Below, in pieces: positions 2,753 through 53,952 of a DNA stretch of 64,000 nucleotides. The position numbers and the translations under genes are program-made. The notes beneath the pieces are model-generated. The model was not told the origin of the DNA. It saw only the letters and a list, made by a program, of their open reading frames with translations, and searched no databases. This DNA comes from an uncultured Eubacteriales bacterium (GTDB taxonomy: Bacteria > Bacillota > Clostridia > TANB77 > CAG-508): contig CASEEU010000022.1 in NCBI GenBank assembly GCA_949287075.1, positions 32,010-96,009 on the forward strand, given 5' to 3'. Position 1 is the first letter of the stretch; every line of letters starts with the position of its first letter.

Positions 2753-2960
2753 TACAATTCAGTGTAAATGAGCTTGTATATATTTTTTTGATAAATTCCT
2801 CGGTTCAATACATGCTCTAGCCTTTCTAAAGATAAAAGAAACGAGCCTCTCGCTGCATCGCGCTTCCTCATTTCTTTTCTATTCAGAAAGGCTACGAGCA
2901 TTCCAATCACATTCGTCATTCATCAAAAAATATATACAAGCTCATTTACATTGAATTGTA
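2753..2960 (+). repeat. Palindromic element A: ~38-40 nt near-perfect terminal inverted repeats, a nested stem (gctc[g]tagcctttct) and a conserved core cgagcctctcgctgcatcgcgcttcctca
   Basis: Inverted repeats read directly (caattcagtgtaaatgagcttgtatatatttttttgat / reverse complement at 2922-2960); the core and both flanks (TTCCTCGG 5', CACATTCGTCA 3') are shared with element C at 59811-60036. Confidence 0.8.
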
Positions 2961-12428: not shown

Positions 12429-13937
12429 TTAAGATATTTTTTTACTTTCTTTTTGTGAAGCAATCATTTCATCTATGATTTCAGCAATGACAACACGTTC
12501 ATTATAAGGATATTTTACACCCATATATTCAATATAAAGATCATTACCAAGACCAGGAATAACTAAAATATCATCTTTATTCATCATATGAATGGCATAT
12601 CGGATGGCTTCTGTTCTATTTAAAATAACCGTATAGGCACCACCAGATTTTTTTAGACCAACTTCAATATCTGCTAATATTTTTCTAGGATCTTCTGTTC
12701 TTACTTGATCAGATGTTAAAACAGTGAAATCAGCTAATGTTCCTGAAATTTCACCCATGATAGGACGTTTTTTAGCATCTCTGTCACCACCGACACCCCA
12801 AGTACAGATAACTCTACCTTTGGTATATGGTTTTACAGTTTTTAAAATAGATTCTAAGCTAGAAGGTGTATGTGCATAATCAATCATGATGGTATAACCT
12901 AATTTATTAGGAACCAATTCACTTCTACCAAAAACACTAAATGGATTTAATCCATTTTTAATACTATCAATGGTAGCTCCAAAATATCTAGTTACAGCAA
13001 TAGCACCAAGTGCATTGTAAGCCATATATTTTCCTGGGATAGATACAGTTACATTATCTGTATAGTCATTTGTGATTAAATCAAATGAAACAGAAGCATT
13101 GGTATAAGAGAAATCTTTTGCCATGACATCCGCTTTATGGTCAATTCCAAAAGTGATGATAGATTTGTTTCCTAGTAAATCAACGGCTTTTCTAGTATAA
13201 TCATTGTCTAAATTAAGAACACAAACAGGAGCTAATTTCATGATAGAAAGCTTTGCTTGATAATAATCTTCCATATTAGGATGTTCATTAGGACTGATAT
13301 GATCTTCACTTAAATTTGTGAAAAGACAAATATCAAAATCACATCCAACAACTCTATCAAGTTTCATAGATTGAGAAGAAACTTCTAGAATAGCAATATC
13401 AACACCTTCTTTAACCATCATATCTAAAGATTGTTGTATTTTATAACTTTCAGGTGTCGTTCTGTCTGTAATTTCTAATTGTTCATCATTAATGTAAATA
13501 GCAATACTTCCAATTAATCCTACTTTATATCCTTGTTTTTGTAAAATAGATTTTATCATAAAAGTAGATGTGGTTTTACCTTTTGTTCCTGTAACACCAA
13601 TTAGTTTTAATTTTTTAGAAGGATGATCATATAAATTACAACTGCATAATCCTAAATTTTTTCTAATAGAATCAACTTTTATTATAGGAATATTTGGATA
13701 ATTCACATCATCCATATTGGTATCTTGATCAACCACAATAGCAACTGCACCATTATCAATTGCACTATCGATAAAAGCAAGTCCATTTAATTTGTAACCA
13801 TTAATGGCAAAAAAAAGTCCATTCGGTTTTATGAGACGAGAATCAGAAGATATATTTGTGATTTCTACATTTAAATCACCTTTAGAATCCATAATATCAA
13901 TATCTTTGAAAACATCTTTTAATTTCATATTTAACAC
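12429..13937 (-). CDS. murE2: Second Mur ligase E paralog (UDP-MurNAc-L-Ala-D-Glu:diamino-acid ligase) carrying DQVR in place of the canonical DNPR motif
   Basis: 502 aa, full three-domain Mur ligase (GVTGTKGKTTST P-loop, MIDYAHTP); C-terminal region reads TSDQVRTEDP whereas the dcw-cluster MurE at 52447 has TSDNPRTEDP. Confidence 0.8.
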   Translation of the reverse strand: MLNMKLKDVFKDIDIMDSKGDLNVEITNISSDSRLIKPNGLFFAINGYKLNGLAFIDSAIDNGAVAIVVDQDTNMDDVNYPNIPIIKVDSIRKNLGLCSCNLYDHPSKKLKLIGVTGTKGKTTSTFMIKSILQKQGYKVGLIGSIAIYINDEQLEITDRTTPESYKIQQSLDMMVKEGVDIAILEVSSQSMKLDRVVGCDFDICLFTNLSEDHISPNEHPNMEDYYQAKLSIMKLAPVCVLNLDNDYTRKAVDLLGNKSIITFGIDHKADVMAKDFSYTNASVSFDLITNDYTDNVTVSIPGKYMAYNALGAIAVTRYFGATIDSIKNGLNPFSVFGRSELVPNKLGYTIMIDYAHTPSSLESILKTVKPYTKGRVICTWGVGGDRDAKKRPIMGEISGTLADFTVLTSDQVRTEDPRKILADIEVGLKKSGGAYTVILNRTEAIRYAIHMMNKDDILVIPGLGNDLYIEYMGVKYPYNERVVIAEIIDEMIASQKESKKIS

Positions 13938-14049
13938 CTCTTAATTTGTTTTATTGTTTATGCTTTTTATATTATAAAACTTTTTTTTATAAAAGTACAG
14001 GAAAAAAGAAAAAATACAGAAAAAATAAAATAACAAAGCAACAAGTTAT

Positions 14050-14235
14050 CATTCGGTGTCGAATTCCTGAAGGATATATATATTATATTTTTCGCTATCC
14101 CAACACTTTACAGACTTTAACGAAATCAGCTCCCACGGGACTGTCGCTGATTTCATAAGAGTCTGTGCGTGTCGGTCCCCACGAAACCCGCTTAAAATAT
14201 AATATATATATTCTCCAAGAATTCGACACCGAACT
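14050..14235. repeat. Palindromic element B: 42-nt near-perfect terminal inverted repeats with a 7-nt internal mismatch patch, plus a nested stem acagact...gaaatcagc
   Basis: cattcggtgtcgaattcctgaaggatatatatattatatttt pairs with its reverse complement at the other end; lies between the divergent murE2 and dapL. Confidence 0.75.
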
Positions 14236-14358: not shown

Positions 14359-15594
14359 ATGAGTAAAATCAATGAAAATTTTTTGAATTTACAAGATAGC
14401 TACTTATTTTCTACTATAGCAAAAAAAGTAGCCGAATACACAAAAAATCATCCAGATAAGGAAATGATTAAATTAGGAATAGGAGATGTTACAAAACCAA
14501 TTGTTCCAGCTTGTTTAGAAGCAATGCATAAAGCAGTTGATGAAATTGGAACGCCAGAAGGATTTAAAGGATATGGTCCAGAACAAGGATATGAATTTTT
14601 AAGAAGAGCTATTGTAGAAAATGACTATAAAGCAAGAGGCGTGGATATAGAGCTAGATGAAGTATTTGTATCAGATGGGGCAAAATGCGATTGTGGTAAC
14701 ATTGTCGACATATTTGCAAAAGAGAATAAGGTTGCGATTACTGATCCTGTATATCCAGTATACTTAGACACAAATGTTATGTCAGGTAGAAGTGGAAAAT
14801 ATAAGGAAGAAACAGGAACATATGAAAATATTGTATACTTACCAGTAACAGCTGAAAATGATTTTAAACCAGCTTTACCAAAAGAAAAAGTAGATATGAT
14901 ATATTTATGTTTCCCAAATAATCCAACAGGAACGGTATTAACCAAAGAAGATTTAAAAGTTTGGGTAGATTATGCAAAAGAAAATAACAGTATTATATTA
15001 TATGATGCTGCATATGAAGCATTTATAGAAGAAGATAATGTACCACATAGTATTTATGAAGTAGAAGGTGCAAAAGATGTAGCTATTGAATTTAAGAGTT
15101 ACTCAAAGACTGCAGGATTTACAGGTGTTAGATGTGCTTATGTAGTAATTCCAAAAACAGTAAAAGGCTATACAAAAACTGGAGAGGCAGTTGAATTTAA
15201 TAAACTTTGGAATAGAAGAACTTGTACAAAATTTAATGGTGTATCATATATTGTACAAAGAGCAGCAGAAGCTACTTATACACCAGAAGGAAGAAAACAA
15301 ATAGAAGAAAATATAGGGTATTATAAAGAAAACGCTAGAATTATCAAAAACGGATTAGAAGAAGCAGGGTTTACTGTATATGGAGCTGTAAATTCACCAT
15401 ATATTTGGTTAAAAGTACCAGAAGGAATGACTTCATGGGAATTCTTTGATAAACTCTTAGAAGAGGTAAACATTGTGGGAACACCAGGAAGTGGATTTGG
15501 ACCTCATGGAGAAGGATATTTTAGACTAACTGCTTTTGGAACAAAAGAAAATACAATAAAAGCAATTGAAAGAATAAAAAATTGGAATATATAA
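14359..15594 (+). CDS. dapL: LL-diaminopimelate aminotransferase
   Basis: 411 aa PLP aminotransferase with the characteristic DapL N-terminus [23 protein letters not shown] and a lysine in [10 protein letters not shown]. Confidence 0.88.
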
Positions 15595-15705: not shown

Positions 15706-16491
15706 ATGGAGAAAACGAAAAAGGAAATATTTTTAAATAAACTCATAAAAAGAATGAAAGAAGAGGAAAAAAATATTGATAAAGCAAGTCAAATAGATAG
15801 AAAACATTATAAAATGAAAGTGAATATCAATAGATTTATACAAATTACTGAAAATCTAAAAGATAAAGATATAGGAATATTTACAGACGAAAATGTAATG
15901 ATAACACATAATGGAAATCCCTATATAACATTCATTTTAGTAATTAAAGCAATTTGTAGTAATACCAATTTAGAGATATGTGTAAATGAAACAATGGTAG
16001 GAGTCAATAGTGTGATTGTGAAAATCATAGAAGAAGTATTAAAAGAATTAAGGATACATCTACAGATTGAGGTTATAAGAAATTTAGAAATATTAAAAAA
16101 TAAAAAAGAAACGAAAATCATTGTTTTGCAAGATAAAGCACAATATTCAAAATTACGAAAAGCAAAAGTCCAAAATGTATATTATAGACCAATATATAAT
16201 GTGGCTTTATACATAGATGATGAAGAATTTGAAGAAATCAAACAAGATATCATACAATATTGTGATGAGAATTTTATAGAAATAGAAATATATGATGCAG
16301 ATAATGTGGAAGATGCAATAGAACAATTAGAGGCAGACAATGAAGGGGAATATGCGTTAATTCTAACAAAGCAAAAAATAGATAAAGATAAAATAAAAGA
16401 ATTAAAGGAAAAAGAGAATATAGAAATGAACATTAATAAAAATATTTTAACAGAATTAGAAGAAAGAATCATAAATAAAAAAATTGGATAA
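15706..16491 (+). CDS. Hypothetical protein (first gene of an operon of unknowns)
   Basis: 261 aa with no recognised motif; tightly followed by the next two genes. Confidence 0.5.
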   Translation: MEKTKKEIFLNKLIKRMKEEEKNIDKASQIDRKHYKMKVNINRFIQITENLKDKDIGIFTDENVMITHNGNPYITFILVIKAICSNTNLEICVNETMVGVNSVIVKIIEEVLKELRIHLQIEVIRNLEILKNKKETKIIVLQDKAQYSKLRKAKVQNVYYRPIYNVALYIDDEEFEEIKQDIIQYCDENFIEIEIYDADNVEDAIEQLEADNEGEYALILTKQKIDKDKIKELKEKENIEMNINKNILTELEERIINKKIG

Positions 16492-16505
16492 GTAGGTGAG
16501 AGAAA

Positions 16506-17348
16506 ATGGCAACTGTAAGAGAAATGAAGAATTTATTAAGCAAAGTAGAGATAACAATCAGTGAAGATGATATAAGAGATGCAATAGAAATTGTACAAAA
16601 AGGAGAAACATTAAAAGCGGGAGAAACAATAGAAGATAAGCTTTTAAATAATGCATCAAATATTAATTTTAAAAAATTATTAATCATTATTGTTAAGAGA
16701 AGACAAGAATTATTAAATAGATATAAAAGTCAAAAAGTATCTAATCTTTTAGAGGAAATGAATGAGAAACAATTAGAAAAAGCAATCAAATTTGCAAAAG
16801 CATATATCAAACCAGAAGAATTCGTGAAAGTAGTGACATTAGATTATACATCTGAAGGAGAACCGCCTATACGTAGAATGATAGATTCTAAAACAGTTGT
16901 ATATGGTCAAAAGATAGAAGAGAAAAACAAACTGTATGAAAAAATAAAAGATACATTACCAGATTTAGAAGTGGTTATGTTTATGGAATTATTCAAAAAT
17001 ATATTAGAAGATGACAATTTAGCAAAATTAGAATTTAAAGAACAAGTGAATGATTTTATGATACAAGAGAATATAGATTCAAAAACGATAGATACATTTT
17101 GGAAAAGTATACCAAAAGCTGAAAGTGACGAAGAAGTAAAAAACATATGTGCAGTTATTAACAAGAAAAAATTTAACGAAAGGATGAGAGACTTAATTCA
17201 AATTTGGGGACCATATATCAATGCAGAAAAATGTATTTTATTTTATGGATGTTGTATTGGTAATGAATTAGAAAAACGGAAAACCATTAGATCTAAAAGA
17301 GACGATTTTCTTGAAAAACATGGAAGATTTATTAAAAGATATTCATAA
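16506..17348 (+). CDS. Hypothetical protein (second gene of the operon of unknowns)
   Basis: 280 aa, charged and helical; C-terminal YGCCIGN motif. Confidence 0.5.
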   Translation: MATVREMKNLLSKVEITISEDDIRDAIEIVQKGETLKAGETIEDKLLNNASNINFKKLLIIIVKRRQELLNRYKSQKVSNLLEEMNEKQLEKAIKFAKAYIKPEEFVKVVTLDYTSEGEPPIRRMIDSKTVVYGQKIEEKNKLYEKIKDTLPDLEVVMFMELFKNILEDDNLAKLEFKEQVNDFMIQENIDSKTIDTFWKSIPKAESDEEVKNICAVINKKKFNERMRDLIQIWGPYINAEKCILFYGCCIGNELEKRKTIRSKRDDFLEKHGRFIKRYS

Positions 17349-19410
17349 ACATACAAAGATTAGTGATAATGAAGAAAAGTGGTTTGGAATAGAGGATATT
17401 TATGGAGTTTTTTCTAAGTGGAATCCAGAAACAGGAGAATATTGTACAGATAAAGATTTAATGACGGGAAAAAAATTATTGAGTGAAACAAATGGTTATG
17501 AAAACTATTGTAACAAGGAAGAATTAAAAAAGATTGCACAGGCAGAACAAAACTTGTTATATTTAGCACAAACGAAAAAATTAAGCAATGCAACTATCTA
17601 TACAATTGCCATGAATCATCCTGTATCAGAAGATACTTTAGCAGGATTATATCAATGTGGTGCTTTTAGTCTAAAACGAGTAGAAACATATGCTAGCCAA
17701 AAAGGCATGAATCTAAATCAAATAAAAGAAAAAATCAAAGAACAAAAACTTCAGGAAAATGAAATAGTGGATTTAAATAATAAAGAAACTTGGGACTTAC
17801 TAACACCAGATGAAAGATTACAGATAGCTGCCAAAAGCATAGAGAATGGAAATTATGAAACAATAAAAGGAAGAATAGAAGAACTTTATGACATACAAGA
17901 AATCGCCAATTTATATAAAGAACTTTACCATGAAAGAGAGCAAGAAGAACAAAATCAAGAATTTCAAGAAAAAAGAAAGAAATACAAAAATTTAATAATA
18001 TTACACAATGCCTTAGGAATGCAAAATAGAGAAGATATCATACTTTTGTTAGAAGAAGACTTAAGTGATGAAATGTTGACCAATTTATATAGTGATTATG
18101 TCATTAGTATGGATGTTCTTGAAAGTTATGGAGATAAAGAATTGGTAATAGAAGCATTTGAACAGGGAAAACTTCATGAAAAAGATATGAAAGAAGCGAT
18201 TTTAAGATATCCAATACCATTAGAAGAACAACAAATTTATCAATATTATCAACAAAATATTTTAATCCCAAGAGATATATTAACATTATATATAAATGAT
18301 AGAATCAACTTAGATACGATTAAAAGAATCAATGAGAAATTGCCAGAAGAACAAAAAATAGATTTAGAATTAAAAGAAGAAGAATTAGCAAATCTATATC
18401 AAAATGCTAAAAAGGAAAAGAAACGTAAACATGTAAATAGTGATATCATTGTGAAATATAAAAGATATGGATTATTATACCAAACACTAAAAAGAGAAAA
18501 TTTAAATGAAGAAGAAAAACTGGAATCAGATAAAAAAATACTAGAACATATGACAGATGTTACACAAGAAGATATCATGGAACTATACAAAGATAATTTA
18601 TTAATCTTAGAAACTGTATTACAACAAGGAGGAAATGATTTAGTAAAAAAATTAACCCTTCAAGGTGATTTGAGAACAAATGATGCAAGAAGATATTTTG
18701 AATCTGAGAAAGAAAAAGTAAGTATAGAGGAAATATTACAAAATCCAGATATGGATGAAACAGAAAAATTGATATTAATCTATACAACATATGGTGACAA
18801 TGTCAAGAAAAGAGAAAAATTAGTAAAAAACTATATTTCTGCATATGCATCAGATATAAAAGGAGAAAACACAACAACCAGAAAGAAAAAAGAGGAAGAA
18901 GAGAGGCTAACAAGTGGTAAAAATACAGTAACAGATCCATATCAAAGATGGAAACTTTTAGCATTATTAGATAAAAATTATAGTAGAAAATATGTAGGTG
19001 GATATTTAATTGTCAAATTACACAATACACAAAAAGCCATTATAGAAAAGTTGTATGGAAAAAAGTATGGGGAAGTAGAACCAGGATATAATGCATCAAC
19101 ATTTTGTTTAGCAACAGAAGAATATGAAAAATTAGAACCAGAACTCATTAGAGATAAAAATAAAGGTAAAAGATTTGATATTGCAAAATTAAGAAAGGAA
19201 GCAAGAAATCATCCAGAAATCATTACAAAAGTAACACATCATTCTGCCAGATATGATGAAAAAGGAAATGAAAAAAACAGTTGGGTAAAAAGATTATTAC
19301 AATATGTGTGTGATAAAGAACCAGAAAAAGTATATACAGAAGAGGAATTGAAGCAAATCAGCGAATGTTCAAAAGCAATTGAAAATTCCAGAAAAGAAAT
19401 AGAAAGATGA
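17311..19410 (+). CDS. Hypothetical large charged helical protein (third gene of the operon of unknowns)
   Basis: 699 aa, overlaps the upstream gene by 38 nt (translational coupling), Glu/Lys-rich, no enzymatic motifs recognised. Confidence 0.5.
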   Translation: MKNMEDLLKDIHKHTKISDNEEKWFGIEDIYGVFSKWNPETGEYCTDKDLMTGKKLLSETNGYENYCNKEELKKIAQAEQNLLYLAQTKKLSNATIYTIAMNHPVSEDTLAGLYQCGAFSLKRVETYASQKGMNLNQIKEKIKEQKLQENEIVDLNNKETWDLLTPDERLQIAAKSIENGNYETIKGRIEELYDIQEIANLYKELYHEREQEEQNQEFQEKRKKYKNLIILHNALGMQNREDIILLLEEDLSDEMLTNLYSDYVISMDVLESYGDKELVIEAFEQGKLHEKDMKEAILRYPIPLEEQQIYQYYQQNILIPRDILTLYINDRINLDTIKRINEKLPEEQKIDLELKEEELANLYQNAKKEKKRKHVNSDIIVKYKRYGLLYQTLKRENLNEEEKLESDKKILEHMTDVTQEDIMELYKDNLLILETVLQQGGNDLVKKLTLQGDLRTNDARRYFESEKEKVSIEEILQNPDMDETEKLILIYTTYGDNVKKREKLVKNYISAYASDIKGENTTTRKKKEEEERLTSGKNTVTDPYQRWKLLALLDKNYSRKYVGGYLIVKLHNTQKAIIEKLYGKKYGEVEPGYNASTFCLATEEYEKLEPELIRDKNKGKRFDIAKLRKEARNHPEIITKVTHHSARYDEKGNEKNSWVKRLLQYVCDKEPEKVYTEEELKQISECSKAIENSRKEIER

Positions 19411-22515: not shown

Positions 22516-22872
22516 ATGAAAAATATAGCAAGAAAAATCATAATAGGAATATTGGCTGGAATTGTCAGTGGATTGTTTTCAACAGGTGGAGGAATGATTG
22601 TGGTTCCAGCATTAATATATTTATTAAATATGGAAGATAAGAAGGCCAGAGGAACCTCTATATTTTGTATATTACCAATGGTTATCACAAGTGGATTTTT
22701 CTATTATAAAAGCAATTATATAGACTGGAATATTTCTATCCTTTGTGCTATTGGTGGGATGATAGGGGGATATATAGGTGCAAAAATATTAAAAAAAATT
22801 CCAGTACAATACTTGAAAATGGCATTTACTATTTTTTTAATATATGCTTCCTATAAAATGATTTTTCAATAA
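22516..22872 (+). CDS. Half-size TSUP/TauE-SafE family membrane protein (first of a pair)
   Basis: 118 aa with about 4 TM segments and a Gly-rich TSUP-like first helix (GILAGIVSGLFSTGGGMIVVPAL). Confidence 0.7.
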   Translation: MKNIARKIIIGILAGIVSGLFSTGGGMIVVPALIYLLNMEDKKARGTSIFCILPMVITSGFFYYKSNYIDWNISILCAIGGMIGGYIGAKILKKIPVQYLKMAFTIFLIYASYKMIFQ

Positions 22873-22881
22873 GAGGAAAAA

Positions 22882-23277
22882 ATGATAGAAATTTTAATAG
22901 GTATATTATCAGGAATTATTAGTGGAACAGGAATGGGAGGAGGAACAATATTAATTTTCCTCCTTATATACACATTAGGAATAGAACAACATATCGCACA
23001 AGCAACAAATTTAATTTTTTTTATTCCTACATCAATCATTGCCATTATCATAAATTTGAAAAATAAAAATATTGCTTTGCAAAGTGCAGTATTGATTTCA
23101 GTATTTGGAATATTCGGTGCGATTATTGGTGCCAATATATCTATTAATATTGATGTCAATGTATTAAGAAAATGTTTTGGTATATTTTTGCTAATGATTG
23201 CCATTCATGAAATATATACCATTATAAAATGGTATAAAAAACAAAAAATACGAGATACTAAGAAAAATGAAAGTTAA
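22882..23277 (+). CDS. Half-size TSUP/TauE-SafE family membrane protein (second of a pair)
   Basis: 131 aa with about 4 TM segments and the same Gly-rich motif (GILSGIISGTGMGGGTILIF); 10-nt gap to the upstream partner. Confidence 0.7.
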   Translation: MIEILIGILSGIISGTGMGGGTILIFLLIYTLGIEQHIAQATNLIFFIPTSIIAIIINLKNKNIALQSAVLISVFGIFGAIIGANISINIDVNVLRKCFGIFLLMIAIHEIYTIIKWYKKQKIRDTKKNES

Positions 23278-23446: not shown

Positions 23447-23502
23447 ATATTAGAATATGTAAAAAATAAAAAGAAATATACTTAGAAGTATTAAAAAGTC
23501 AA

Positions 23503-23532
23503 AAATCCAACTTAAATAAAAGTTGGATTTTT
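23503..23532. terminator. Bidirectional terminator hairpin (3' of the minus-strand Cys-rich gene fragment)
   Basis: aaaaatccaactt...aagttggattttt. Confidence 0.6.
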
Positions 23533-23558
23533 AGCTTTTAATAGCAGATTTCGATATT

Positions 23559-23890
23559 AGTAATTTGATTTGTTACAACATTTATCACAACATTTATCAT
23601 CGTATTTTTTATCGCATTTATCATCGTATTTTTCATCATATTTTTCGTCGCATTTTTTATCACATTTATCGTCTTTTTTGTCTTTACATTTGCATTTATC
23701 AGATTCTAAAAAGCAATCACATTTTTCATGTTTATCACCTTTTAAACATCTTCCTTCATGATGACATTTTGCACAAATTTTAATTTTTTTCGTGTCATTT
23801 ACCCAGATTTGGATAGCATATTGTTTTCCTGGGCATAAAGGACCAAATACGAACTCGCCCTCGCAATCGGTAAAGTTGGATAAAACCTTA
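23559..23890 (-). pseudogene. 3' portion of a gene for a Cys/Lys/Asp-rich protein (open frame of ~110 codons with no ATG/GTG/TTG start), ending in a 24-nt tandem-repeat-encoded DKCDKKYDD-like tail; probably the distal half of a gene split by the integrated element
   Basis: Minus-strand frame reads ...NFTDCEGEFVFGPLCPGKQYAIQIWVNDTKKIKICAKCHHEGRCLKGDKHEKCDCFLESDKCKCKDKKDDKCDKKCDEKYDEKYDDKCDKKYDDKCCDKCCNKSNY*; a terminator follows; there is no in-frame start back to the stop at about 23905. Confidence 0.5.
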
Positions 23891-24068
23891 AGTACAACAA
23901 AAATAAGGTATAGAGAGAGTAACTATTCATTGAAATAATATTATATAAAAAATTTTAGGAAATACTAATAAAAGAGACTTAACTTTAAAGGGTTAAGTAT
24001 TTTTTGTGAAAGAAACCTACCATTTATATATTATTTTAGGTCAAATACTATACCTTAATGTATAAAAG

Positions 24069-25712
24069 GTGGTAAGAAATATGTTAGTTATAGAAAATGT
24101 AGAAGATACAGTAATAGTATTAAAAACTCTAATATGTAGAGAAGTTAAATCATTTGATAAGAAACCAAAAGAAATTAATGTTGGAATAATAGATGTAGAC
24201 TTTTCATTAATAAGATATCTAGGACAAGCAACAGAAATAAAGGATATTGATATCAATAATTGTGGATATGTAATTATAAAAAGAAAAGATAACACTACCA
24301 CTACACTTGGAAGATTTATTTTAGAGTATTATTCAAAATATGATAATAGATTAAAGGAAATATTAGAAAATACAGAATATGAAATAAATCATATAAACAG
24401 TGATAAATTAGATAATAGAATAGAGAATTTAGAAATTGTAACACATCAAGATAATATAAAACATAGTAAAGGTTTAAATTATGACATTATATATAAAAGT
24501 GAAGATTTAAAATTATTACAAGAAATGAATAAAAATGAGAAGAAACAAGAGATAGACAAGCAATATTTAAATAGAATAAGTGGTTTATTTTTTAAATTGT
24601 ATAATTCATATATGGAGAAGAAAGAGTGTAAATTAGACATTAAAATTTTAAAATGTTGTTATTTAAAATTTAAAAATAATAAAACTAAATCTAACACAAA
24701 AGAACAAGAGATAAGAGAGAGTAAGGACTTAACTACTTTAAAACAATATAAATTAATGTCTTATTTTCATACAAATTTTATTAAAGAAATATTACAGAAA
24801 AAGAAGCAATATATTTATAAAAAAGTAGTAGGTAATAATATAACTTTACTAAATAAATATATAGAAAGATACCCTATACTAAAAAATATATTTAAAAAAT
24901 ATAAAATAATGGACAAAGAATTTAAAGAACAATTAAAGTTTGATAAATCTAACAGTAGAAATATATTAATAGACTTCTTAACAGACATATATAAATTTAA
25001 TTGGTATGTAATAGAAAATGGACACATACTATTAACTGTTAATATTAGAAATTTTATTAATGTAAAAGGAAAGTATAAAGCATTTTTAACATTATATTTA
25101 TTAGGTTTATTAAAAAGACAAAATGATATTTCTAAACAAAATACTATTTCTAACCGTTTAGTACACACACCTAGTTTTATACATATACCATTTTATACAG
25201 ATGAACTTTTAAAACAAGCTAATAATATAGCCAAAGATTTATTGCCCTTAAATCTTAATAAATTTACTTACTTTTTAATTAGACAAGAGTTTGGAGAAGA
25301 AATAGCTGATTCTATTTATAAAAATAAAAAATCTAAATCTAATTACAAGTATGGTTTAAGAGCCAAAGAAGATATTATAGAATTTATTAAAACTGACAAA
25401 GACATTTTAAATTTTGGTTTTATGACTGTTGAAGAAATTTTTGACCACATACAAGGTTTAAATGTTCAAAGACAAATAAAAGGAGAAAATTACAACAATA
25501 TCTATAATAGTTTTATAAATTTTATAAAATCATTACTTCTATACAACACAGATACTAAAAAGAGATTAGATGAATTAGGTTTTACTTATATATCTTTAAA
25601 TACTAAAATTATAGAAAATATTAAAAAATATCAAAAAGAACAAGGTTTTGATTTTCCTATTTCTCTAAAACCAAAAGAGAAAGTAATAGTAATGAAAAAG
25701 TTAATTAAATAA
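24069..25712 (+). CDS. HNH endonuclease-domain protein with a long Lys/Asn-rich C-terminal region
   Basis: The N-terminal ~140 aa carries a phage-type HNH motif (GYVIIKRKD...EINHINSDKLDNRIENLEIVTHQDNIKH); the remaining ~400 aa are uncharacterised. Confidence 0.7.
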   Translation: MVRNMLVIENVEDTVIVLKTLICREVKSFDKKPKEINVGIIDVDFSLIRYLGQATEIKDIDINNCGYVIIKRKDNTTTTLGRFILEYYSKYDNRLKEILENTEYEINHINSDKLDNRIENLEIVTHQDNIKHSKGLNYDIIYKSEDLKLLQEMNKNEKKQEIDKQYLNRISGLFFKLYNSYMEKKECKLDIKILKCCYLKFKNNKTKSNTKEQEIRESKDLTTLKQYKLMSYFHTNFIKEILQKKKQYIYKKVVGNNITLLNKYIERYPILKNIFKKYKIMDKEFKEQLKFDKSNSRNILIDFLTDIYKFNWYVIENGHILLTVNIRNFINVKGKYKAFLTLYLLGLLKRQNDISKQNTISNRLVHTPSFIHIPFYTDELLKQANNIAKDLLPLNLNKFTYFLIRQEFGEEIADSIYKNKKSKSNYKYGLRAKEDIIEFIKTDKDILNFGFMTVEEIFDHIQGLNVQRQIKGENYNNIYNSFINFIKSLLLYNTDTKKRLDELGFTYISLNTKIIENIKKYQKEQGFDFPISLKPKEKVIVMKKLIK

Positions 25713-25756
25713 CCCTTAAATTATATATTTTTATAGGAAAGGTAGGTTTTAAAATT

Positions 25757-25930
25757 ATGATAACTTATACTGTTAAAGAACTAGAACCAATTTTAAAAAG
25801 AAAATCTAAAACTATAAAAAGATACATCAAAGATGGAGAACTTGAAGCAACTAGAATTGGTAAAGGCTACATCATTACAGAAGAAAAAGTAAGAGAATTT
25901 TTTGAGGACTACAAAGTTCCTAAAAAATAG
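25757..25930 (+). CDS. Excisionase-family/MerR-like HTH DNA-binding protein (candidate recombination directionality factor)
   Basis: 57 aa: TVKELEPILKRKSKTIKRYIKDGELEATRIGKGYIITEEKVREFF matches the excisionase-family DNA-binding domain pattern; shorter than 60 aa so absent from the ORF table. Confidence 0.55.
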   Translation: MITYTVKELEPILKRKSKTIKRYIKDGELEATRIGKGYIITEEKVREFFEDYKVPKK

Positions 25931-26329
25931 AACTTTTAAAATTTTATATAGGTTTTAAATATTCTGTATATCTCTTAATTATCAGAATGACATCAGATGA
26001 ACTTTCATAATTAATTAAATAAATTATATATCTAAAATATAAAATGTATCAGATTTTATTGTGAAATTGTTTTAAAACAGTCTATTTACAAAGATGAAAT
26101 GATGGTTTAATATAAATTAAACAAATGAAAAATGTTTATTTGTCAGATATTTAGAGAATTTATTTTAATATTTGGATAAATTCTCTTACCCCCTCATTTT
26201 ATTTTAGAAAGTAGGTGTTATAAATGAAGATACATTTTTATAATTTAATTTTAAATAGTTCGTGAACTCTCTATTGTTAAGCAGTAGAGAGTTTTATTTT
26301 TTAGTTTAATATGGGAGAAGAGAATTAAT

Positions 26330-26548
26330 ATGTTTTATAAAAAGGGAGAGATAAGACCGTACTTATTAAATAATGTTGTACATTTTGAAAAAATTTTAAA
26401 AATAAATAAAAAGGAAAAAACATATACAATAGAAGATATATTTACAAAAGAAATAAATATTATTGGTGAAAATGATATTTTTTTAGGAGATGATTATAGA
26501 ACAATAAATATAATAAGAATTCATTTTCAAATTCTTATTATAAAATAA
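26330..26548 (+). CDS. Hypothetical small protein (island)
   Basis: 72 aa ORF with a GGGAGAAG RBS. Confidence 0.35.
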   Translation: MFYKKGEIRPYLLNNVVHFEKILKINKKEKTYTIEDIFTKEINIIGENDIFLGDDYRTINIIRIHFQILIIK

Positions 26549-26574
26549 ATCAAACAAAAAGGAGAGAAAAAGAA

Positions 26575-27069
26575 ATGGAAGAAAAAATCGTAATTAGTAA
26601 AACAGTGCTTAAAGATTTAATTAATTATAATAATGAAGTTTTAGACTTATTGAAAAAAGTAGATAATGTGAATATAGATAAGTACAAAAATATTAATGAA
26701 AAATTAGAAGATATTATTAGAAAAGAAAGTTGTATAAATGGGTTTGGAGAGATATTTGAAATAAAGAATATAAAAATAGACATAGAAAAATTACCATTAT
26801 TAAAATTTATACTTCGTGAGTTTGGAGAAGATTTATATACACCATCAAAGGTTAATGAAGAATTAAGAAAGAAAAAAATAAAATTAGGGGAAGAATTAGA
26901 AGGTACATTTACAGAAGAGCAGAAAGAAAAATTTATAGAATATTGGGACTTGGAAAATCAAATAGAAGAAGAATTAGAAAGTCAATTATTTATGTATGGT
27001 TTTATAATGGCACAAGAATTAAAAAATGAAGTCGAAAGTACAAGAATTAATAAACTACTAGACAAATAA
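26575..27069 (+). CDS. Hypothetical protein (island)
   Basis: 164 aa with an AAGGAGAG RBS; no motif. Confidence 0.45.
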   Translation: MEEKIVISKTVLKDLINYNNEVLDLLKKVDNVNIDKYKNINEKLEDIIRKESCINGFGEIFEIKNIKIDIEKLPLLKFILREFGEDLYTPSKVNEELRKKKIKLGEELEGTFTEEQKEKFIEYWDLENQIEEELESQLFMYGFIMAQELKNEVESTRINKLLDK

Positions 27070-27078
27070 GCTAGTAGT

Positions 27079-27279
27079 TTATTTTGTGAACTTAAATAAA
27101 TCGTTAGGTTCACAATTTAAAATTTTACAAAATTTTTCTATGTTTTCGTACTTTATAGATTTAGTTTTATTTTCTACAATATTATTAAAATTTGTGTAAC
27201 TCATATCTAATTGATTAAACAACCAATATTTAGTTTTACCTTGTTTTTTTAATAGTTCAACAACATTTAATTTTAACAT
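27079..27279 (-). CDS. XRE-family (Cro/CI-type) HTH transcriptional regulator
   Basis: 66 aa: LLKKQGKTKYWLFNQLDMSYTNFNNIVENKTKSIKYENIEKFCKILNCEPNDLF is a typical HTH_XRE pattern. Confidence 0.7.
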   Translation of the reverse strand: MLKLNVVELLKKQGKTKYWLFNQLDMSYTNFNNIVENKTKSIKYENIEKFCKILNCEPNDLFKFTK

Positions 27280-27433
27280 ACAGACACCTCACAATTCTGT
27301 ATATATTGTAGAAAAAATCAAATAAAAATATAACTCACGAAAGCAATAGACAAATAAAAATAAAAGTGATATACTTCTAAAAAAGAGTTGGAGGTGTATT
27401 GTTAAAAATAATTGAATTAGAAAAGAGTTAGAA

Positions 27434-27706
27434 ATGAATAATTATTTTGAATTTGATGAAGAAGAACTTAGGAAAATAATGTTAGAAATGATTAATTATA
27501 AAGAAGATTCACTTTATAATAAAGATTTAGACATAATGTGTAACTTGAAAATTCGAAGAAAAGATTTAGGAAAAGAAAAGACTTTAAAATATAAAGTAAA
27601 TAATAAAAAGAAGCAAACAAAAATTAAAATACCAAAAGAAATAGAAAATGGACAAAGTATAGTTTATATCAAAGAGGGAGAAAAGAAAAATAATATAGTT
27701 TTATAG
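27434..27706 (+). CDS. Hypothetical small protein (island)
   Basis: 90 aa. Confidence 0.35.
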   Translation: MNNYFEFDEEELRKIMLEMINYKEDSLYNKDLDIMCNLKIRRKDLGKEKTLKYKVNNKKKQTKIKIPKEIENGQSIVYIKEGEKKNNIVL

Positions 27707-27729
27707 GTAGAAAGGAAAAAGTTTAAAAG

Positions 27730-27939
27730 ATGAATATTGAAGATTATACATATTCAGTAAATGGAAAAGAAATAACATTTGAAGAATTTTTAGACGAATA
27801 TAGAAAATTATTTAGAACAGATATAGCATTTGAAAGAGGCAAAGAAAGATTAAATAATATATTGGAAGAAAAAGATTTTTCTAATTGGAATGTTATAGGG
27901 AGAAAAGATAACAAACATTTAAAGGTAACTAGAAAATAG
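27730..27939 (+). CDS. Hypothetical small protein (island)
   Basis: 69 aa. Confidence 0.35.
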   Translation: MNIEDYTYSVNGKEITFEEFLDEYRKLFRTDIAFERGKERLNNILEEKDFSNWNVIGRKDNKHLKVTRK

Positions 27940-28013
27940 TAAAACTTAAAGAAGATAGAAAAATATCATTAGAAAATTATTATACAAGCAAAATATATTT
28001 AGGAGGAAGAGTA

Positions 28014-28484
28014 ATGATAGTATTGATATTAGCGATTGTCTGTGTGACTATAATATTATATGTAGAAGGAAGAAAAGAAAAAAGCAAGGGTTATGTAATA
28101 ATAATAAGTTCATTAATATGGTTTATATTAATAATAGCTATATTAATAAAAGGAGTACAATTCTTATTTAGCCCTGCACCAGTAGAAAATACTGATAATG
28201 ATGCTATATTGTGTGCACAACAAGTTGTAAAGGATACATTAAGAGATCCAAGTTCAGCAAAATTTAATAGTAAACAAGTTTTGGAAAAAGATAATTATAG
28301 CAGATATTTAATAGAGTTAGATGTCAGTGGTAAAAATGGCTTTGGAGGAGTAAGCAGAGAAGTGTATTATGTAGTTGTAAAATATAATTCAACTAAAGAA
28401 AATTTTGAATATTATACAAACAATGCTGTCGGAACTGATAAAGAGACTGTAAAAGCTTTAAATAATTGGGGAGAAGCTGAATAA
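28014..28484 (+). CDS. Membrane-anchored hypothetical protein (island)
   Basis: 156 aa with two N-terminal hydrophobic segments and an extracytoplasmic domain. Confidence 0.45.
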   Translation: MIVLILAIVCVTIILYVEGRKEKSKGYVIIISSLIWFILIIAILIKGVQFLFSPAPVENTDNDAILCAQQVVKDTLRDPSSAKFNSKQVLEKDNYSRYLIELDVSGKNGFGGVSREVYYVVVKYNSTKENFEYYTNNAVGTDKETVKALNNWGEAE

Positions 28485-28590
28485 ATACTGTCTTGATAAT
28501 AGTATATTTATATTTAACTTTAATCAATAATAAAATATTGTTAGAAAAATAATAAATTTTAGTAAATTATAAAAAGGAAGATTAGAAACA

Positions 28591-49742: not shown

Positions 49743-50240
49743 ATGGCAGCAAGATATCAATATGAAACAAGTCCAAGAAAGTTAGAACCGGATATTAGAA
49801 AAGAAAAGAAAAAACAAAATATTAAAGTAGTAAAAGACTTGCCAAAGCAAGATGTAAAATTATCAAAAGAACAAAAAATGAAACATAGAAAAGCAACTTT
49901 ATTAGTTATGGTTATATTTGCTGTATTATTTACCATAAGTTATCGAAATACTCAAATTAACGAAAAATTTAATGAAATGCAAGAATTAAAAACAAAATTA
50001 TCATCATTACAAAAGGAAAATGAACAATTGCAAGTAACAATAGAAAATAGTCTAAATTTAAGCAATATAGAAAAACAAGCAAAAGAAAAATTAGGTATGC
50101 AAAAATTAACGAATAAACAAACAGTGTATGTTAGTTTACCTAAAAAAGATTATATAGAATCTGCAACAGAAAAAGTAGAGATTAGTGACAATAATGAAAA
50201 TTGGTTTCAAAAATTAGTTGATAAAATTTTTAATAAATAA
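49743..50240 (+). CDS. ftsL: Cell division protein FtsL-like (septum formation initiator family)
   Basis: 165 aa bitopic protein: basic N-terminus, TM segment (LLVMVIFAVLFTISY), coiled coil; located between rsmH and the PBP gene. Confidence 0.7.
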   Translation: MAARYQYETSPRKLEPDIRKEKKKQNIKVVKDLPKQDVKLSKEQKMKHRKATLLVMVIFAVLFTISYRNTQINEKFNEMQELKTKLSSLQKENEQLQVTIENSLNLSNIEKQAKEKLGMQKLTNKQTVYVSLPKKDYIESATEKVEISDNNENWFQKLVDKIFNK

Positions 50241-52446: not shown

Positions 52447-53952
52447 TTGAAAGAAATGGAATTAAAACAATTATTAGTAGGTTTAGAGAATTTAAAAGTA
52501 AAAGGAAATCTAGATATTGAAATCTCTGGAATTGAAAACAATTCACAAAATGTAAAAAAAGGATATTTATTTGTAGCCATACAAGGATTTTCAACAGATG
52601 GGCATCAATATGTGGAAAGTGCTATACAAAATGGTGCAGTAGCCATCATGATTCAAGAAGGCTGTAACTTAAAAGGGGTTAAAATACCAGATAATGTAAC
52701 AGTAGTAATGGCAAAAGATACAAGAGAAGGATTAGCCATTGTATCAGATAATTTTTATGATCATCCATCAAGAAAATTTAAATTAATTGGTGTTACAGGA
52801 ACAAAAGGAAAAACAACTACTACGTTTATGCTAAAAGAAATATTTGAAAAAGCAGGAAAAAAAGTAGGGTTAATTGGAACAATTGCTATATATATTAATG
52901 GAAAAAAATTAAAAGATAGTGATAGAACAACACCAGAAAGTTTAGAATTGCAACAAATTTTTGCAGAAATGGCAAAACAAGGTGTTGAAGTGGTCGTAAT
53001 GGAAGTTTCATCACAAAGTCTAAAATTAAAAAGAGTAGACAGATGTGATTTTGATATTGCTATATTTACCAATTTTTCAGAAGATCATATTAGCCCAAAA
53101 GAGCATCCAGATATGCAAGATTATTTTAATGCAAAATTAAAATTATTTAAAATGTGTAAAACAGGAATTACAAACGCAGATGATTTACAAGGAGCAAAGA
53201 TACCAAGATTGTTTCCAGAGAGTAATATTACAACATATGGAATTGATAATTATGCAAATCTTTTGGCAAAAGATATTACCATTACAAATTCTTATGTAGA
53301 TTTTAAAGTAAAATTAAAAGATAAAAATGAAAGAGTAAAAACAGGAATACCTGGAAGGTTTAGTGTATATAATTCATTAGCGGCTATTTGTGTTGCGCAA
53401 AAATTTGGAATAGCCCCTGAACCTATAAAAGAAGCGTTATTGGAAGTAAGAGTACCAGGTAGATCTGAATTAGTAAATAATAAAAGAGAAATACCAATCA
53501 TGATAGATTATGCACATTCACCTGAAAGTTTAGAAAACATATTACAAGCAACCAAAAGTTATACAAGAGGAAAGGTAATATCTGTATTTGGGTGTGGAGG
53601 AGATAGAGATCCAGGTAAAAGACCAATTATGGGAGAAATATCAGGAAGAATTGCTGATTTTACAATTATTACGTCTGATAATCCAAGAACAGAAGATCCT
53701 AAAATGATAGTAAATCAAATTGAAGAAGGTTTGAAAAAGAAAAATGGAAAATATATGGTAATGATTGATAGAAAAGAAGCAATAAAAGAAGCAATTAAAA
53801 TGGCAACAAAGCGAGATATTGTTATTTTAGCAGGAAAAGGGCATGAACTATATCAAGAAATTGATGGAGAGAAATATCCTTTTGATGAAAGAGTAATTGT
53901 TAGAGAAATAATAGATGAATTAGAATCTGAAACAAAGAACAAGAAAAAATAA
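52447..53952 (+). CDS. murE: UDP-N-acetylmuramoyl-L-alanyl-D-glutamate--2,6-diaminopimelate ligase (canonical DNPR motif)
   Basis: 501 aa Mur ligase with GVTGTKGKTTTTFM and TSDNPRTEDP; position in the dcw cluster. Confidence 0.9.
   Translation: MKEMELKQLLVGLENLKVKGNLDIEISGIENNSQNVKKGYLFVAIQGFSTDGHQYVESAIQNGAVAIMIQEGCNLKGVKIPDNVTVVMAKDTREGLAIVSDNFYDHPSRKFKLIGVTGTKGKTTTTFMLKEIFEKAGKKVGLIGTIAIYINGKKLKDSDRTTPESLELQQIFAEMAKQGVEVVVMEVSSQSLKLKRVDRCDFDIAIFTNFSEDHISPKEHPDMQDYFNAKLKLFKMCKTGITNADDLQGAKIPRLFPESNITTYGIDNYANLLAKDITITNSYVDFKVKLKDKNERVKTGIPGRFSVYNSLAAICVAQKFGIAPEPIKEALLEVRVPGRSELVNNKREIPIMIDYAHSPESLENILQATKSYTRGKVISVFGCGGDRDPGKRPIMGEISGRIADFTIITSDNPRTEDPKMIVNQIEEGLKKKNGKYMVMIDRKEAIKEAIKMATKRDIVILAGKGHELYQEIDGEKYPFDERVIVREIIDELESETKNKKK

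What the first reader, a model, noticed from the sequence alone, without database searches (positions are those of the whole stretch)
12429..13937. Second MurE paralog with DQVR in place of DNPR, clustered with dapF, dapL and mtgA
Two full-length murE genes are present. The dcw-cluster copy (52447-53952) has the canonical meso-DAP-specifying DNPR motif. The second copy (minus strand) has DQVR at the same position and is flanked by dapF (DAP epimerase), dapL (LL-DAP aminotransferase) and a monofunctional transglycosylase. Established knowledge: the DNPR motif in E. coli MurE contacts the distal carboxylate of meso-DAP, while Lys-adding enzymes differ there. Inference: MurE2 may add a different diamino acid (LL-DAP, lanthionine, amidated DAP), or may act at a different time such as spore cortex synthesis, or the duplication may provide resistance. 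The dcw cluster here also lacks murF and murD, so Mur ligase organisation in this genome is atypical.
Basis: partly seen in the sequence, partly recalled or inferred. Interest (0 to 1): 0.55.

Follow-up and report, generated by a model that had tools for sequence, protein, structure and literature searches.

The report
Second MurE with remodelled DAP pocket
An uncultured low-GC gut Clostridia genome carries the normal cell-wall ligase MurE plus a conserved second copy that sits among diaminopimelate-synthesis genes and has an altered amino-acid pocket at three almost universally conserved positions, so it probably adds a DAP-like residue with a changed preference, but no enzyme assay exists.

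Summary
MurE2 (12429-13928, minus strand; the start is probably the ATG at 13928) is a full-length MurE, 50% identical to the dcw-cluster MurE1. It has DQVR where MurE1 has DNPR, and also GLGND where MurE1 has GKGHE.

MurE2 is not a decaying copy:
- All catalytic residues are invariant across 120 clade members.
- dN/dS is about 0.10.
- The AlphaFold model is confident and matches solved MurE structures.
- Ten related species keep a perfect TTGACA-17-TATAAT promoter upstream.

The signature Q414/L465/D468 (E. coli numbering) is fixed in the whole MurE2 clade and absent from 143 outgroup MurE representatives, where N/K/E are 97% conserved. MurE2 is the derived copy, and its fixed changes concentrate around the third-amino-acid pocket. 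The Arg and Asp that hold the distal carboxylate and amine of DAP are kept.

The gene lies tail-to-tail with dapF in 21 species genomes. Its upstream neighbour is dapL in some lineages and the unrelated DAP-pathway gene dapD in another.

Best reading: a vegetatively expressed, neofunctionalised ligase for a DAP-type substrate. The exact substrate (LL-DAP, another analogue, or still meso-DAP) is unresolved. Sporulation-specific expression of MurE2 and a resistance role are not supported. This is a new variant of a known kind and of moderate interest.

The parts
12429..13928 (-). murE2, a paralogous UDP-MurNAc-L-Ala-D-Glu:diamino-acid ligase (499 aa from ATG 13928; the mechanical ORF starts at GTG 13937)
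   Evidence: TIGR01085 418 bits, NF001126 485.6 bits; RBS and ATG; catalytic residues invariant; dN/dS 0.10; AF2 pLDDT 91.4; Foldseek TM 0.87-0.91 to M. tuberculosis MurE
12699..12710 (-). DQVR, equivalent to E. coli D413-N414-P415-R416. The fixed change is N414Q; Asp and Arg are kept.
   Evidence: Q 120/120, R 120/120, V 68 / A 46; Q in 0/143 outgroups, N in 97%
12540..12554 (-). GLGND loop, equivalent to E. coli G464-K465-G466-H467-E468. The fixed changes are K465L and E468D.
   Evidence: L 120/120, D 120/120; L and D each in 0/143 outgroups; K and E 97%
13971..13999 (-). Promoter-like block TGTACT-17-TATAAT upstream of murE2. It is conserved in the two closest species. More distant orthologs have a perfect TTGACA-17-TATAAT.
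   Evidence: window, L001 and L002 share the block; 10 species with the perfect consensus
14052..14233 (.). Long near-perfect hairpin inserted between murE2 and dapL. It is not part of the conserved locus.
   Evidence: z about -12 on both strands; absent from the 94%-identity species L001
11567..12397 (+). dapF (diaminopimelate epimerase), convergent with murE2. The pairing is conserved in 21 species genomes.
   Evidence: (TIGR00652, 316 bits)
14359..15594 (+). dapL (LL-diaminopimelate aminotransferase), divergent from murE2
   Evidence: TIGR03542, 622 bits; also adjacent in L002 and L017-L020
10732..11427 (-). Monofunctional peptidoglycan glycosyltransferase (Transgly domain only)
   Evidence: (adjacent in 18 of 21 species loci)
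52456..53952 (+). murE1, the canonical dcw-cluster MurE with DNPR and GKGHE
   Evidence: (NF001126, 578.6 bits)

Best explanation
MurE2 is an active ATP-dependent Mur ligase. It arose by an old duplication of murE inside this uncultured low-GC Clostridia lineage and then remodelled the pocket that holds the side chain of the third stem-peptide residue. It keeps everything needed for the chemistry: the P-loop, the Mg ligands, the carbamylated-Lys position and the Arg389 equivalent. It also keeps the Asp and Arg that clamp the distal amine and carboxylate of a diaminopimelate-type substrate. It has changed three near-universal residues (N414Q, K465L, E468D) and the strands that carry them. It is transcribed on its own from a housekeeping-type promoter and stays physically tied to DAP-pathway genes. 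I infer that during normal growth it ligates a DAP-pathway diamino-dicarboxylic acid to UDP-MurNAc-L-Ala-D-Glu, with a specificity or binding geometry different from the canonical meso-DAP enzyme MurE1. LL-DAP, which is the substrate of DapF and the product of the DapL and DapD branches, is the most obvious candidate. Shown: gene integrity, purifying selection, the derived pocket, the promoter and the synteny. Inferred: the substrate and the division of labour with MurE1.
For: - Fold and family: three Mur-ligase domains are present (precomputed Pfam). MurE HMM scores exceed their cut-offs. The AF2 model has pLDDT 91.4 and pTM 0.90, and its best structural matches are solved MurE enzymes.
- Activity and selection: catalytic residues are invariant in 120/120 members. 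dN/dS is 0.10, against 0.13 for MurE1.
- Pocket: Q414, L465 and D468 are fixed in the clade, including the 62%-identity members, which read DQVR/GLGHD. These states occur in 0 of 143 outgroup representatives.
- Direction of change: of 38 fixed MurE1/MurE2 differences, 22 lie in the C-terminal domain (Fisher p = 0.002). MurE2 is the derived state at 15 sites and MurE1 at 3.
- Structural meaning: in solved MurE structures Asn414 and Arg416 bind the D-centre carboxylate, and Asp413 and Glu468 bind the distal amine (PMC3829189).
- Context: murE2-dapF is convergent in 21 species genomes. The upstream neighbour is dapL in six lineages and the non-homologous DAP gene dapD in an otherwise unrelated neighbourhood.
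- Expression: a perfect TTGACA-17-TATAAT is conserved in 10 species where the surrounding sequence is unalignable.
- Origin: GC content equals that of the rest of the genome. The nearest non-clade relatives are the MurE1 enzymes of the same lineage.
Against: - There are no biochemical data.
- N to Q and E to D are conservative. One side chain lengthens and the other shortens, so they could compensate for each other and preserve meso-DAP binding.
- MurE2 still passes NCBI's meso-DAP MurE equivalog cut-off (485.6 against 373).
- LL-DAP actinobacteria keep the canonical recognition residues, and E. coli MurE accepts LL-DAP in vitro (PMC2993542). No precedent therefore links this motif to LL-DAP.
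- Adjacency to dapF fits meso-DAP, the DapF product, at least as well as LL-DAP.
- All four neighbouring genes are separate transcription units, and part of the synteny extends to housekeeping genes (ruvA, mgsA). Some of the adjacency may therefore be inherited gene order.
- Co-occurrence of MurE1 and MurE2 in one genome is shown only for this window.
Confidence: 0.45

Rival explanations
1. MurE2 is still a meso-DAP ligase. It would be an isozyme with different kinetics or regulation, for example constitutive expression outside the MraZ-controlled dcw operon, or a different affinity or feedback behaviour. On this view the pocket changes compensate for each other.
For: - It passes the meso-DAP equivalog cut-off.
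- Arg416, Asp413 and Arg389 are kept.
- N to Q and E to D keep the chemistry.
- It is paired with dapF, which makes meso-DAP.
- It has its own strong sigma-A-type promoter.
Against: Duplicates kept for dosage or regulation rarely fix radical changes at positions that are 92-97% conserved across the family. Here those include K465L, F383W, C385V, A463P and Q471I, and none of the three key states occurs in 143 outgroups. The changes cluster on the three loops that form the amino-acid pocket.
Confidence: 0.33
2. The two enzymes divide the work by developmental stage. Either MurE2 serves the spore cortex, or the reverse holds: MurE2 builds the vegetative wall and the canonical MurE1 supplies meso-DAP precursors for the cortex, as in Lysinibacillus sphaericus.
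For: - From my own knowledge, L. sphaericus has a vegetative L-Lys-adding enzyme and a sporulation-specific meso-DAP-adding enzyme.
- The dcw PBP and SEDS proteins next to murE1 score close to the SpoVD and SpoVE models (593 and 403 bits, both below cut-off).
- In a sister species the dcw PBP gene is split by a serine-recombinase element in about half the strains. That shows it tolerates interruption, as sporulation genes sometimes do.
Against: - murE2 carries a conserved consensus sigma-A promoter, which argues against the cortex-specific version.
- No sporulation gene was identified in the 64 kb window.
- The FtsW-like gene passes the FtsW cut-off, not the SpoVE one.
- It is unknown whether this lineage sporulates.
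Confidence: 0.12
3. MurE2 adds a non-DAP residue such as L-Lys or L-Orn, or a sulphur analogue such as meso-lanthionine.
For: The pocket is remodelled. Near relatives outside the clade have lost the motif Arg, which is expected for Lys/Orn-type enzymes: P0208 has DQVF and P0146 has ENPM. E. coli MurE accepts lanthionine (own knowledge).
Against: - Arg416 is invariant (120/120), whereas the Lys enzyme of S. aureus has Ala there.
- The score against the Lys-ligase model is 321, with a cut-off of 536.
- The DAP-gene context is conserved.
- The adjacent DapF has all canonical DapF motifs and scores 316 bits.
Confidence: 0.07
4. MurE2 is a resistance or immunity copy that is insensitive to an inhibitor or antimetabolite of MurE, or it has left peptidoglycan synthesis altogether, as the plant MurE-like proteins have.
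For: The altered pocket could exclude an analogue. The plant MurE-like protein PAP11 and moss PpMurE2 show that the fold can take on non-ligase roles.
Against: There is no biosynthetic cluster, transporter or mobile context around murE2. It is vertically inherited at genomic GC content. All ligase catalytic residues are invariant, which is unlike a protein that has lost the activity.
Confidence: 0.03

Closest known systems
meso-DAP-adding MurE (E. coli 1E8C, M. tuberculosis 2WTZ/2XJA, M. thermoresistibile 8G6P; NCBIfam NF001126/TIGR01085)
   Same: Same three-domain fold (TM 0.81-0.91). Same catalytic residues. HMM scores are above cut-off. Asp413, Arg416 and Arg389 are kept.
   Different: N414Q, K465L and E468D are fixed, plus F383W, C385V, A463P and Q471I. 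None of the three key states is seen in 143 other MurE representatives. It lies outside the dcw cluster, between DAP-synthesis genes.
L-Lys-adding MurE of Staphylococcus aureus (4C12; DNPA motif)
   Same: Same fold (TM 0.86). In both, specificity is set by the same loops.
   Different: The S. aureus enzyme loses the Arg (DNPA) and keeps Glu460. MurE2 keeps the Arg and changes the Glu to Asp. MurE2 scores 321 against the Lys-ligase model, whose cut-off is 536.
Thermotoga maritima MurE (4BUB; DDPR; adds L- and D-Lys and accepts meso-DAP in vitro)
   Same: It is a natural variant at the second motif position that keeps the Arg. This shows that position 414 tunes specificity.
   Different: T. maritima keeps GRGHE and is the only MurE of its genome. 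MurE2 also changes the 464-468 loop and coexists with a canonical copy.
Two diamino-acid-adding enzymes of Lysinibacillus (Bacillus) sphaericus: vegetative L-Lys and sporulation meso-DAP (own knowledge; not retrieved here)
   Same: One genome holds two MurE-type activities that differ in their amino-acid pocket.
   Different: There the split is Lys against DAP and is developmental. Here both copies look DAP-type, and MurE2 has a housekeeping-type promoter.
Second MurE homologues of plants (PpMurE2, PAP11 of the plastid RNA polymerase)
   Same: They are duplicated MurE homologues retained next to a functional copy.
   Different: The plant copies keep DNPR but gain extensions, and preliminary in vitro work indicates that PpMurE2 does not act as a ligase (PMC9434261). 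MurE2 has no extensions, keeps all catalytic residues and changes only the pocket.

Membership tests
Mur ligase / MurE (UDP-MurNAc-tripeptide synthetase, TIGR01085) | Three domains: Mur_ligase N-terminal, central ATP-binding, C-terminal | tested here: met
   Orthologs carry PF01225, PF08245 and PF02875. The AF2 model has pTM 0.90 and matches MurE structures at TM 0.87-0.91.
Mur ligase / MurE (UDP-MurNAc-tripeptide synthetase, TIGR01085) | Whole-protein score above the curated cut-off | tested here: met
   TIGR01085 scores 418.1 bits against a cut-off of 257.3.
Mur ligase / MurE (UDP-MurNAc-tripeptide synthetase, TIGR01085) | P-loop GxxGKT(T), Mg ligands (E. coli E182, H210), the carbamylatable Lys224, His359 and Arg389 | tested here: met
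   All are invariant in 120/120 clade members. Carbamylation itself cannot be tested here.
meso-DAP-specific MurE (DNPR class; NF001126 equivalog) | DNPR motif, in which Asn414 and Arg416 bind the D-centre carboxylate | tested here: not met
   The motif is DQVR. Asn is replaced by Gln in 120/120 members and Arg is retained.
meso-DAP-specific MurE (DNPR class; NF001126 equivalog) | GKGHE loop, in which Glu468 binds the distal amine | tested here: not met
   The loop is GLGND (GLGHD in distant members). K465L and E468D are fixed.
meso-DAP-specific MurE (DNPR class; NF001126 equivalog) | Score above the curated equivalog cut-off | tested here: met
   485.6 bits against a cut-off of 373; MurE1 scores 578.6.
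meso-DAP-specific MurE (DNPR class; NF001126 equivalog) | Catalytic preference for meso-DAP | not testable with these tools
   This needs an enzyme assay.
L-Lys-adding MurE (NF010628) | Loss of the motif Arg (DNPA type) and a score above the cut-off | tested here: not met
   The Arg is kept. The score is 321.1 bits against a cut-off of 536.
Sporulation-specific cell-wall paralogue | Expression from a sporulation sigma-factor promoter rather than a sigma-A promoter | tested here: not met
   A perfect TTGACA-17-TATAAT is conserved in 10 species. The window has TGTACT-17-TATAAT. Expression itself was not measured.

The most novel reading that the evidence does not exclude
These gut Clostridia build vegetative peptidoglycan with a third-position residue that is not meso-DAP. 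Candidates are LL-DAP or another DAP-pathway or analogue diamino-dicarboxylic acid, added by MurE2. The canonical MurE1 would be kept for a second pool of meso-DAP precursors, for example for septum or cortex. That would mean two stem-peptide chemistries in one cell and a previously unrecognised specificity motif (DQxR + GLGxD) for MurE.
Probability: 0.3. Interest if true: 0.65.

Novelty: new variant of a known kind. Interest (0 to 1): 0.45.

Why it matters
MurE decides the third residue of the peptidoglycan stem peptide. That residue governs cross-linking and lysin and antibiotic susceptibility. In the gut it also affects recognition by host NOD1, which is tuned to meso-DAP-type fragments (own knowledge).

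A conserved, expressed MurE with a pocket not seen in other MurE enzymes would have three consequences:
- It would give a sequence signature for predicting an unknown wall chemotype in an abundant but uncultured gut lineage.
- It would provide a natural experiment on how MurE specificity is encoded beyond the DNPR motif.
- It would warn that automatic annotation as 'meso-DAP ligase' hides functional diversity.

If MurE2 turns out to be an ordinary meso-DAP isozyme, the finding reduces to a lineage-specific duplication.

Tried and rejected
- Pseudogene or decaying duplicate: rejected. dN/dS is 0.10, the catalytic residues are invariant and the promoter is conserved.
- Recent horizontal transfer: rejected. 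GC and GC3 match neighbouring genes. The nearest relatives outside the clade are MurE1 enzymes of the same lineage, although the sister relationship has only 51% NJ bootstrap support.
- Riboswitch control of the DAP-gene cluster: no Rfam family was found in the window or in seven orthologous loci. The GC-rich structure upstream of murE2 is a long hairpin insertion missing from the closest species.
- DQVR as a known LL-DAP signature: not supported by the literature found. Searches for 'MurE2' or 'two murE' found only the plant and Streptomycetaceae cases, and in the latter the 'second murE' is a short DUF1727 protein.
- Co-occurrence of MurE1 and MurE2 in other genomes: I compared samples and records holding MurE1 orthologs (P0270, P0284, P0292, P0335, P0381) with those holding MurE2 orthologs (P0006, P0085, P0103). 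No shared assembly turned up. The tools return at most 10 kb of flank, and the two genes are 38.5 kb apart here, so this stays open. Indirect support is that both ortholog series show parallel identity steps.
- Literature searches for L. sphaericus adding enzymes and lanthionine/MurE specificity returned nothing directly usable.
Full report
**Observation**

The window is a chromosome piece of about 28-29% GC. Its closest relatives are uncultured gut 'Clostridia bacterium' MAGs and Clostridium sp. CAG:343.

ORF 12429-13937 (-) encodes a 502-aa MurE homologue, and ORF 52447-53952 (+) a 501-aa one. They are 50% identical end to end. Both exceed the curated cut-offs of TIGR01085 (MurE) and of the NF001126 meso-DAP ligase equivalog. 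MurE2 scores 485.6 bits and MurE1 578.6, against a cut-off of 373.

The true start of murE2 is probably the ATG at 13928. It sits 8 nt after an AAGAGG ribosome-binding site and gives 499 aa, like ortholog P0001.

MurE2 reads DQVR where MurE1 reads DNPR. The alignment to E. coli MurE places these four residues on D413-N414-P415-R416. The loop that in E. coli is G464-K-G-H-E468 reads GKGHE in MurE1 and GLGND in MurE2.

The flanking genes are as described: a monofunctional transglycosylase, dapF and dapL. The dcw cluster is mraZ-rsmH-ftsL-PBP-murE1-mraY-ftsW-murG, without murF or murD.

**Is MurE2 a working gene?**

Yes, on five counts.
- Its 120 best database relatives (65-98% identity) all carry DQ[V/A/I/P]R, and 119 of the 120 matched GLG[N/S]DLY.
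- In an alignment of 120 MurE2-type and 121 MurE1-type sequences with E. coli MurE, the functional residues are invariant in both groups. These are the P-loop, the E182/H210 metal ligands, the carbamylatable Lys224, His359 and Arg389.
- Against the closest species, dN/dS is 0.10 for MurE2 (dS 0.31) and 0.13 for MurE1.
- An AlphaFold2 model built on an alignment of 34 sequences has mean pLDDT 91.4 and pTM 0.90. Its best matches among solved structures are the MurE enzymes of M. tuberculosis (TM 0.87-0.91), M. thermoresistibile, S. aureus, E. coli and T. maritima.
- GC and GC3 of murE2 equal those of its neighbours.

**How unusual is the pocket?**

An exhaustive HMMER search of 1.84 billion cluster representatives found 40,884 relatives. 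I looked at the best 150 together with the two window copies.
- DNPR occurs 118 times and DNSR 11 times.
- GKGHE occurs 123 times.
- DQxR appears only in MurE2, its cluster representative P0091, a fragment (P0129) and P0122. P0122 is a singleton at 49% identity with DQIR/GFGHD.
- P0208 has DQVF/GLGHE.

More distant MurE2 orthologs (62% identity, L017-L020) have DQVR and GLGHD. A MurE1 ortholog (L036) has DNVR. The clade-defining changes are therefore N414Q, K465L and E468D, not P415V.

Thirty-eight positions are fixed differently in the two clades. Twenty-two of them lie in the C-terminal domain (12.8 per 100 residues, against 6.5 in the central domain and 1.0 in the N-terminal domain; Fisher p = 0.002).

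Polarising these sites with 143 outgroup representatives shows MurE2 derived at 15 sites and MurE1 at 3. The derived MurE2 states include positions that are otherwise 80-97% conserved.

| Change (E. coli numbering) | Common state in outgroups | MurE2 state in outgroups |
|---|---|---|
| N414Q | 97% | 0/143 |
| K465L | 97% | 0/143 |
| E468D | 97% | 0/143 |
| F383W | 92% | 0/143 |
| C385V | 85% | 0/143 |
| A463P | 80% | 0/143 |
| Q471I | 83% | about 4% |

From general knowledge of the Mur-ligase C-terminal domain, these residues sit on the three loops that follow strands β1 (GGDRD), β2 (DNPR) and β4 (GKGHE) and form the amino-acid pocket.

According to the S. aureus MurE structure paper, Asn414 and Arg416 hydrogen-bond the D-centre carboxylate of meso-DAP. 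Asp413 and Glu468 bind the distal amine. The Lys enzyme replaces the Arg by Ala (PMC3829189). MurE2 keeps Asp and Arg, lengthens Asn to Gln, shortens Glu to Asp and removes the Lys. The simplest reading is that the substrate still has a distal carboxylate and amine (a DAP-type molecule) but is held differently.

**Origin**

In a neighbour-joining tree of 160 MurE sequences, bootstrap support was as follows.

| Grouping | Bootstrap support |
|---|---|
| MurE1 orthologs monophyletic | 100% |
| MurE2 plus P0122 | 100% |
| MurE2 alone | 82% |
| The two groups as exclusive sisters | 51% |

Three further variant-pocket representatives fall nearby without support: P0160 (FNPR/GLGHN), P0146 (ENPM/GLGEE) and P0208. 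No sequence outside its own cluster is more similar to MurE2 than MurE1 is. An old duplication within the lineage, followed by asymmetric divergence of MurE2, is the most economical history.

**Genomic context**

A scan of one genome per GTDB species returned 21 species with a MurE2 ortholog, all uncultured gut Clostridia.
- In all 21, dapF lies immediately downstream and convergent.
- In 18, the monofunctional transglycosylase follows.
- Two (L017, L020) have a class B PBP paralogue in that place.
- Five (L002, L017-L020) have dapL upstream, as in the window.

In a further lineage (L070; MurE2 67% identical) the wider neighbourhood is unrelated (polC, rseP, cdsA, uppS, frr, pyrH). Even so, murE2 is again followed by dapF. 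It is preceded by dapD, a tetrahydrodipicolinate N-succinyltransferase (NF008808, 261 bits against a cut-off of 204). dapD is a DAP-pathway gene that is not homologous to dapL. This is the strongest sign that the link to DAP metabolism is selected rather than inherited.

There are caveats.
- The four genes alternate in orientation, so they are not co-transcribed.
- Part of the synteny extends to ruvA and mgsA.
- In one species a 5-kb insertion separates murE2 from dapF.
- The DapF next to murE2 has all canonical DapF motifs and a high equivalog score.

**Expression**

Ten species share a perfect TTGACA-17-TATAAT, about 30 nt upstream of a GGAGG ribosome-binding site. The surrounding sequence is unalignable, so this is a phylogenetic footprint of a strong housekeeping promoter. 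The window and its two closest relatives share a different block, TGTACT-17-TATAAT. No riboswitch or other Rfam family is present. This argues against the idea that MurE2 is made only during sporulation. No sporulation gene was recognised in the window.

**What does it do?**

The evidence shows a selected, expressed ligase with a derived pocket, tied to DAP genes. It does not reveal the substrate.
- LL-DAP is the obvious candidate. It is the product of the DapL and DapD branches and the substrate of DapF. However, LL-DAP actinobacteria keep the canonical residues, and E. coli MurE accepts LL-DAP in vitro (PMC2993542), so there is no precedent for the motif.
- The N-to-Q and E-to-D pair could be compensatory, leaving meso-DAP as the substrate.

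I put altered DAP-type specificity at 0.45 and a meso-DAP isozyme at 0.33. A developmental split, in either direction, gets 0.12, a non-DAP substrate 0.07, and resistance or a non-ligase role 0.03.

**Limits**

MurE1 and MurE2 are shown in one genome only for this window. Attempts to find both in another assembly failed for technical reasons. The parallel series of ortholog identities suggests that the two co-occur across the genus but does not prove it. The series are MurE1 at 100, 90, 88, 86 and 82% and MurE2 at 98, 86, 83, 78 and 74%.

**Comparison and novelty**

MurE2 is a member of the MurE family by fold, catalytic residues and HMM score. It fails two sequence features that define the meso-DAP class (Asn414 and the GKGHE loop) and does not fit the Lys class. 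Known analogies all differ in which residues changed:
- the T. maritima DDPR enzyme;
- the two adding enzymes of L. sphaericus (own knowledge);
- the plant MurE-like duplicates.

I found no description of a DQxR/GLGxD MurE. I rate it a new variant of a known kind, of moderate interest.

Noticed in passing
window 2753-2960 and 59810-60037; L078-L082: A family of intergenic palindromic elements of about 210-230 nt. They share conserved core motifs: ATTTCCTCGG, an apex CGAGCCTCTCGCTGC(A)TCGCGCTTCCTCA, and CACATTCGTCA. The stems of 36-50 nt differ between copies but are almost perfectly complementary within each copy (RNA MFE -115 and -85 kcal/mol, z -18.5 and -16.3). Five more copies lie on equal-coverage contigs of one metagenome, with a hypervariable stretch of about 18 nt mirrored exactly in the other arm. 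There is no Rfam family and no match in viral contigs. Their nature is unknown..
   Followed up: partly
window 14052-14233: A different long hairpin with a GC-rich core sits between murE2 and dapL (z about -12 on both strands). It is absent from the 94%-identity species L001, so it is a recent insertion. It may have displaced the ancestral murE2 promoter..
   Followed up: partly
window 50236-50322 and 56222-56328: Two more long inverted repeats lie inside the dcw cluster, one between ftsL and the PBP gene and one between ftsW and murG (34-42 nt arms, 88-100% complementary). The second overlaps the mechanical TTG start of murG..
   Followed up: no
L051, L052, L054, L056, L057, L059, L084 (sister species; upstream of murE1): In about half the strains that carry an identical MurE1 (P0292), the dcw PBP gene is split 58 codons before its end. 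The inserted element is more than 9 kb long and carries three serine-recombinase genes, a PemK toxin and a sigma-70 region-4 protein. Other strains have the intact 661-aa PBP. This resembles the intervening elements found in sporulation genes, or it may be an ordinary integrative element..
   Followed up: partly
P0160, P0146, P0208, P0122 (database representatives): Other MurE relatives near this lineage also replace K465 by Leu or Phe and vary the DNPR motif (FNPR/GLGHN, ENPM/GLGEE, DQVF/GLGHE, DQIR/GFGHD). This suggests a wider radiation of pocket variants in uncultured Firmicutes. P0160's cluster has 37 members on contigs of up to 365 kb..
   Followed up: partly
window about 23500-37400: A low-GC island (21-25% GC) carries an HNH endonuclease, a resolvase, a ParE toxin, a serine-recombinase fragment and zinc-ribbon proteins. 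It is a likely mobile element lying between murE2 and the dcw cluster..
   Followed up: no
window 15706-19410: Three consecutive Lys/Glu-rich ORFs (261, 280 and 699 aa) between dapL and ruvA have no hit in Pfam or NCBIfam. An unannotated ORF occupies the same position in L019 and L017..
   Followed up: no
window 22516-23277; L071 6997-7742: The TauE/SafE permease is encoded as two adjacent half-length ORFs, both in the window and in a distant relative. The split therefore looks conserved rather than a sequencing error..
   Followed up: no
L073-L076: In some related species murE1-mraY follows pyrB-pyrI instead of the PBP gene, so the dcw cluster is broken upstream of murE1..
   Followed up: no
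window 37462-45753: A single 2763-aa ORF. Its ortholog in a sister species carries Glycoamylase and GH94 domains (cyclic beta-1,2-glucan synthase or glycan phosphorylase type)..
   Followed up: no
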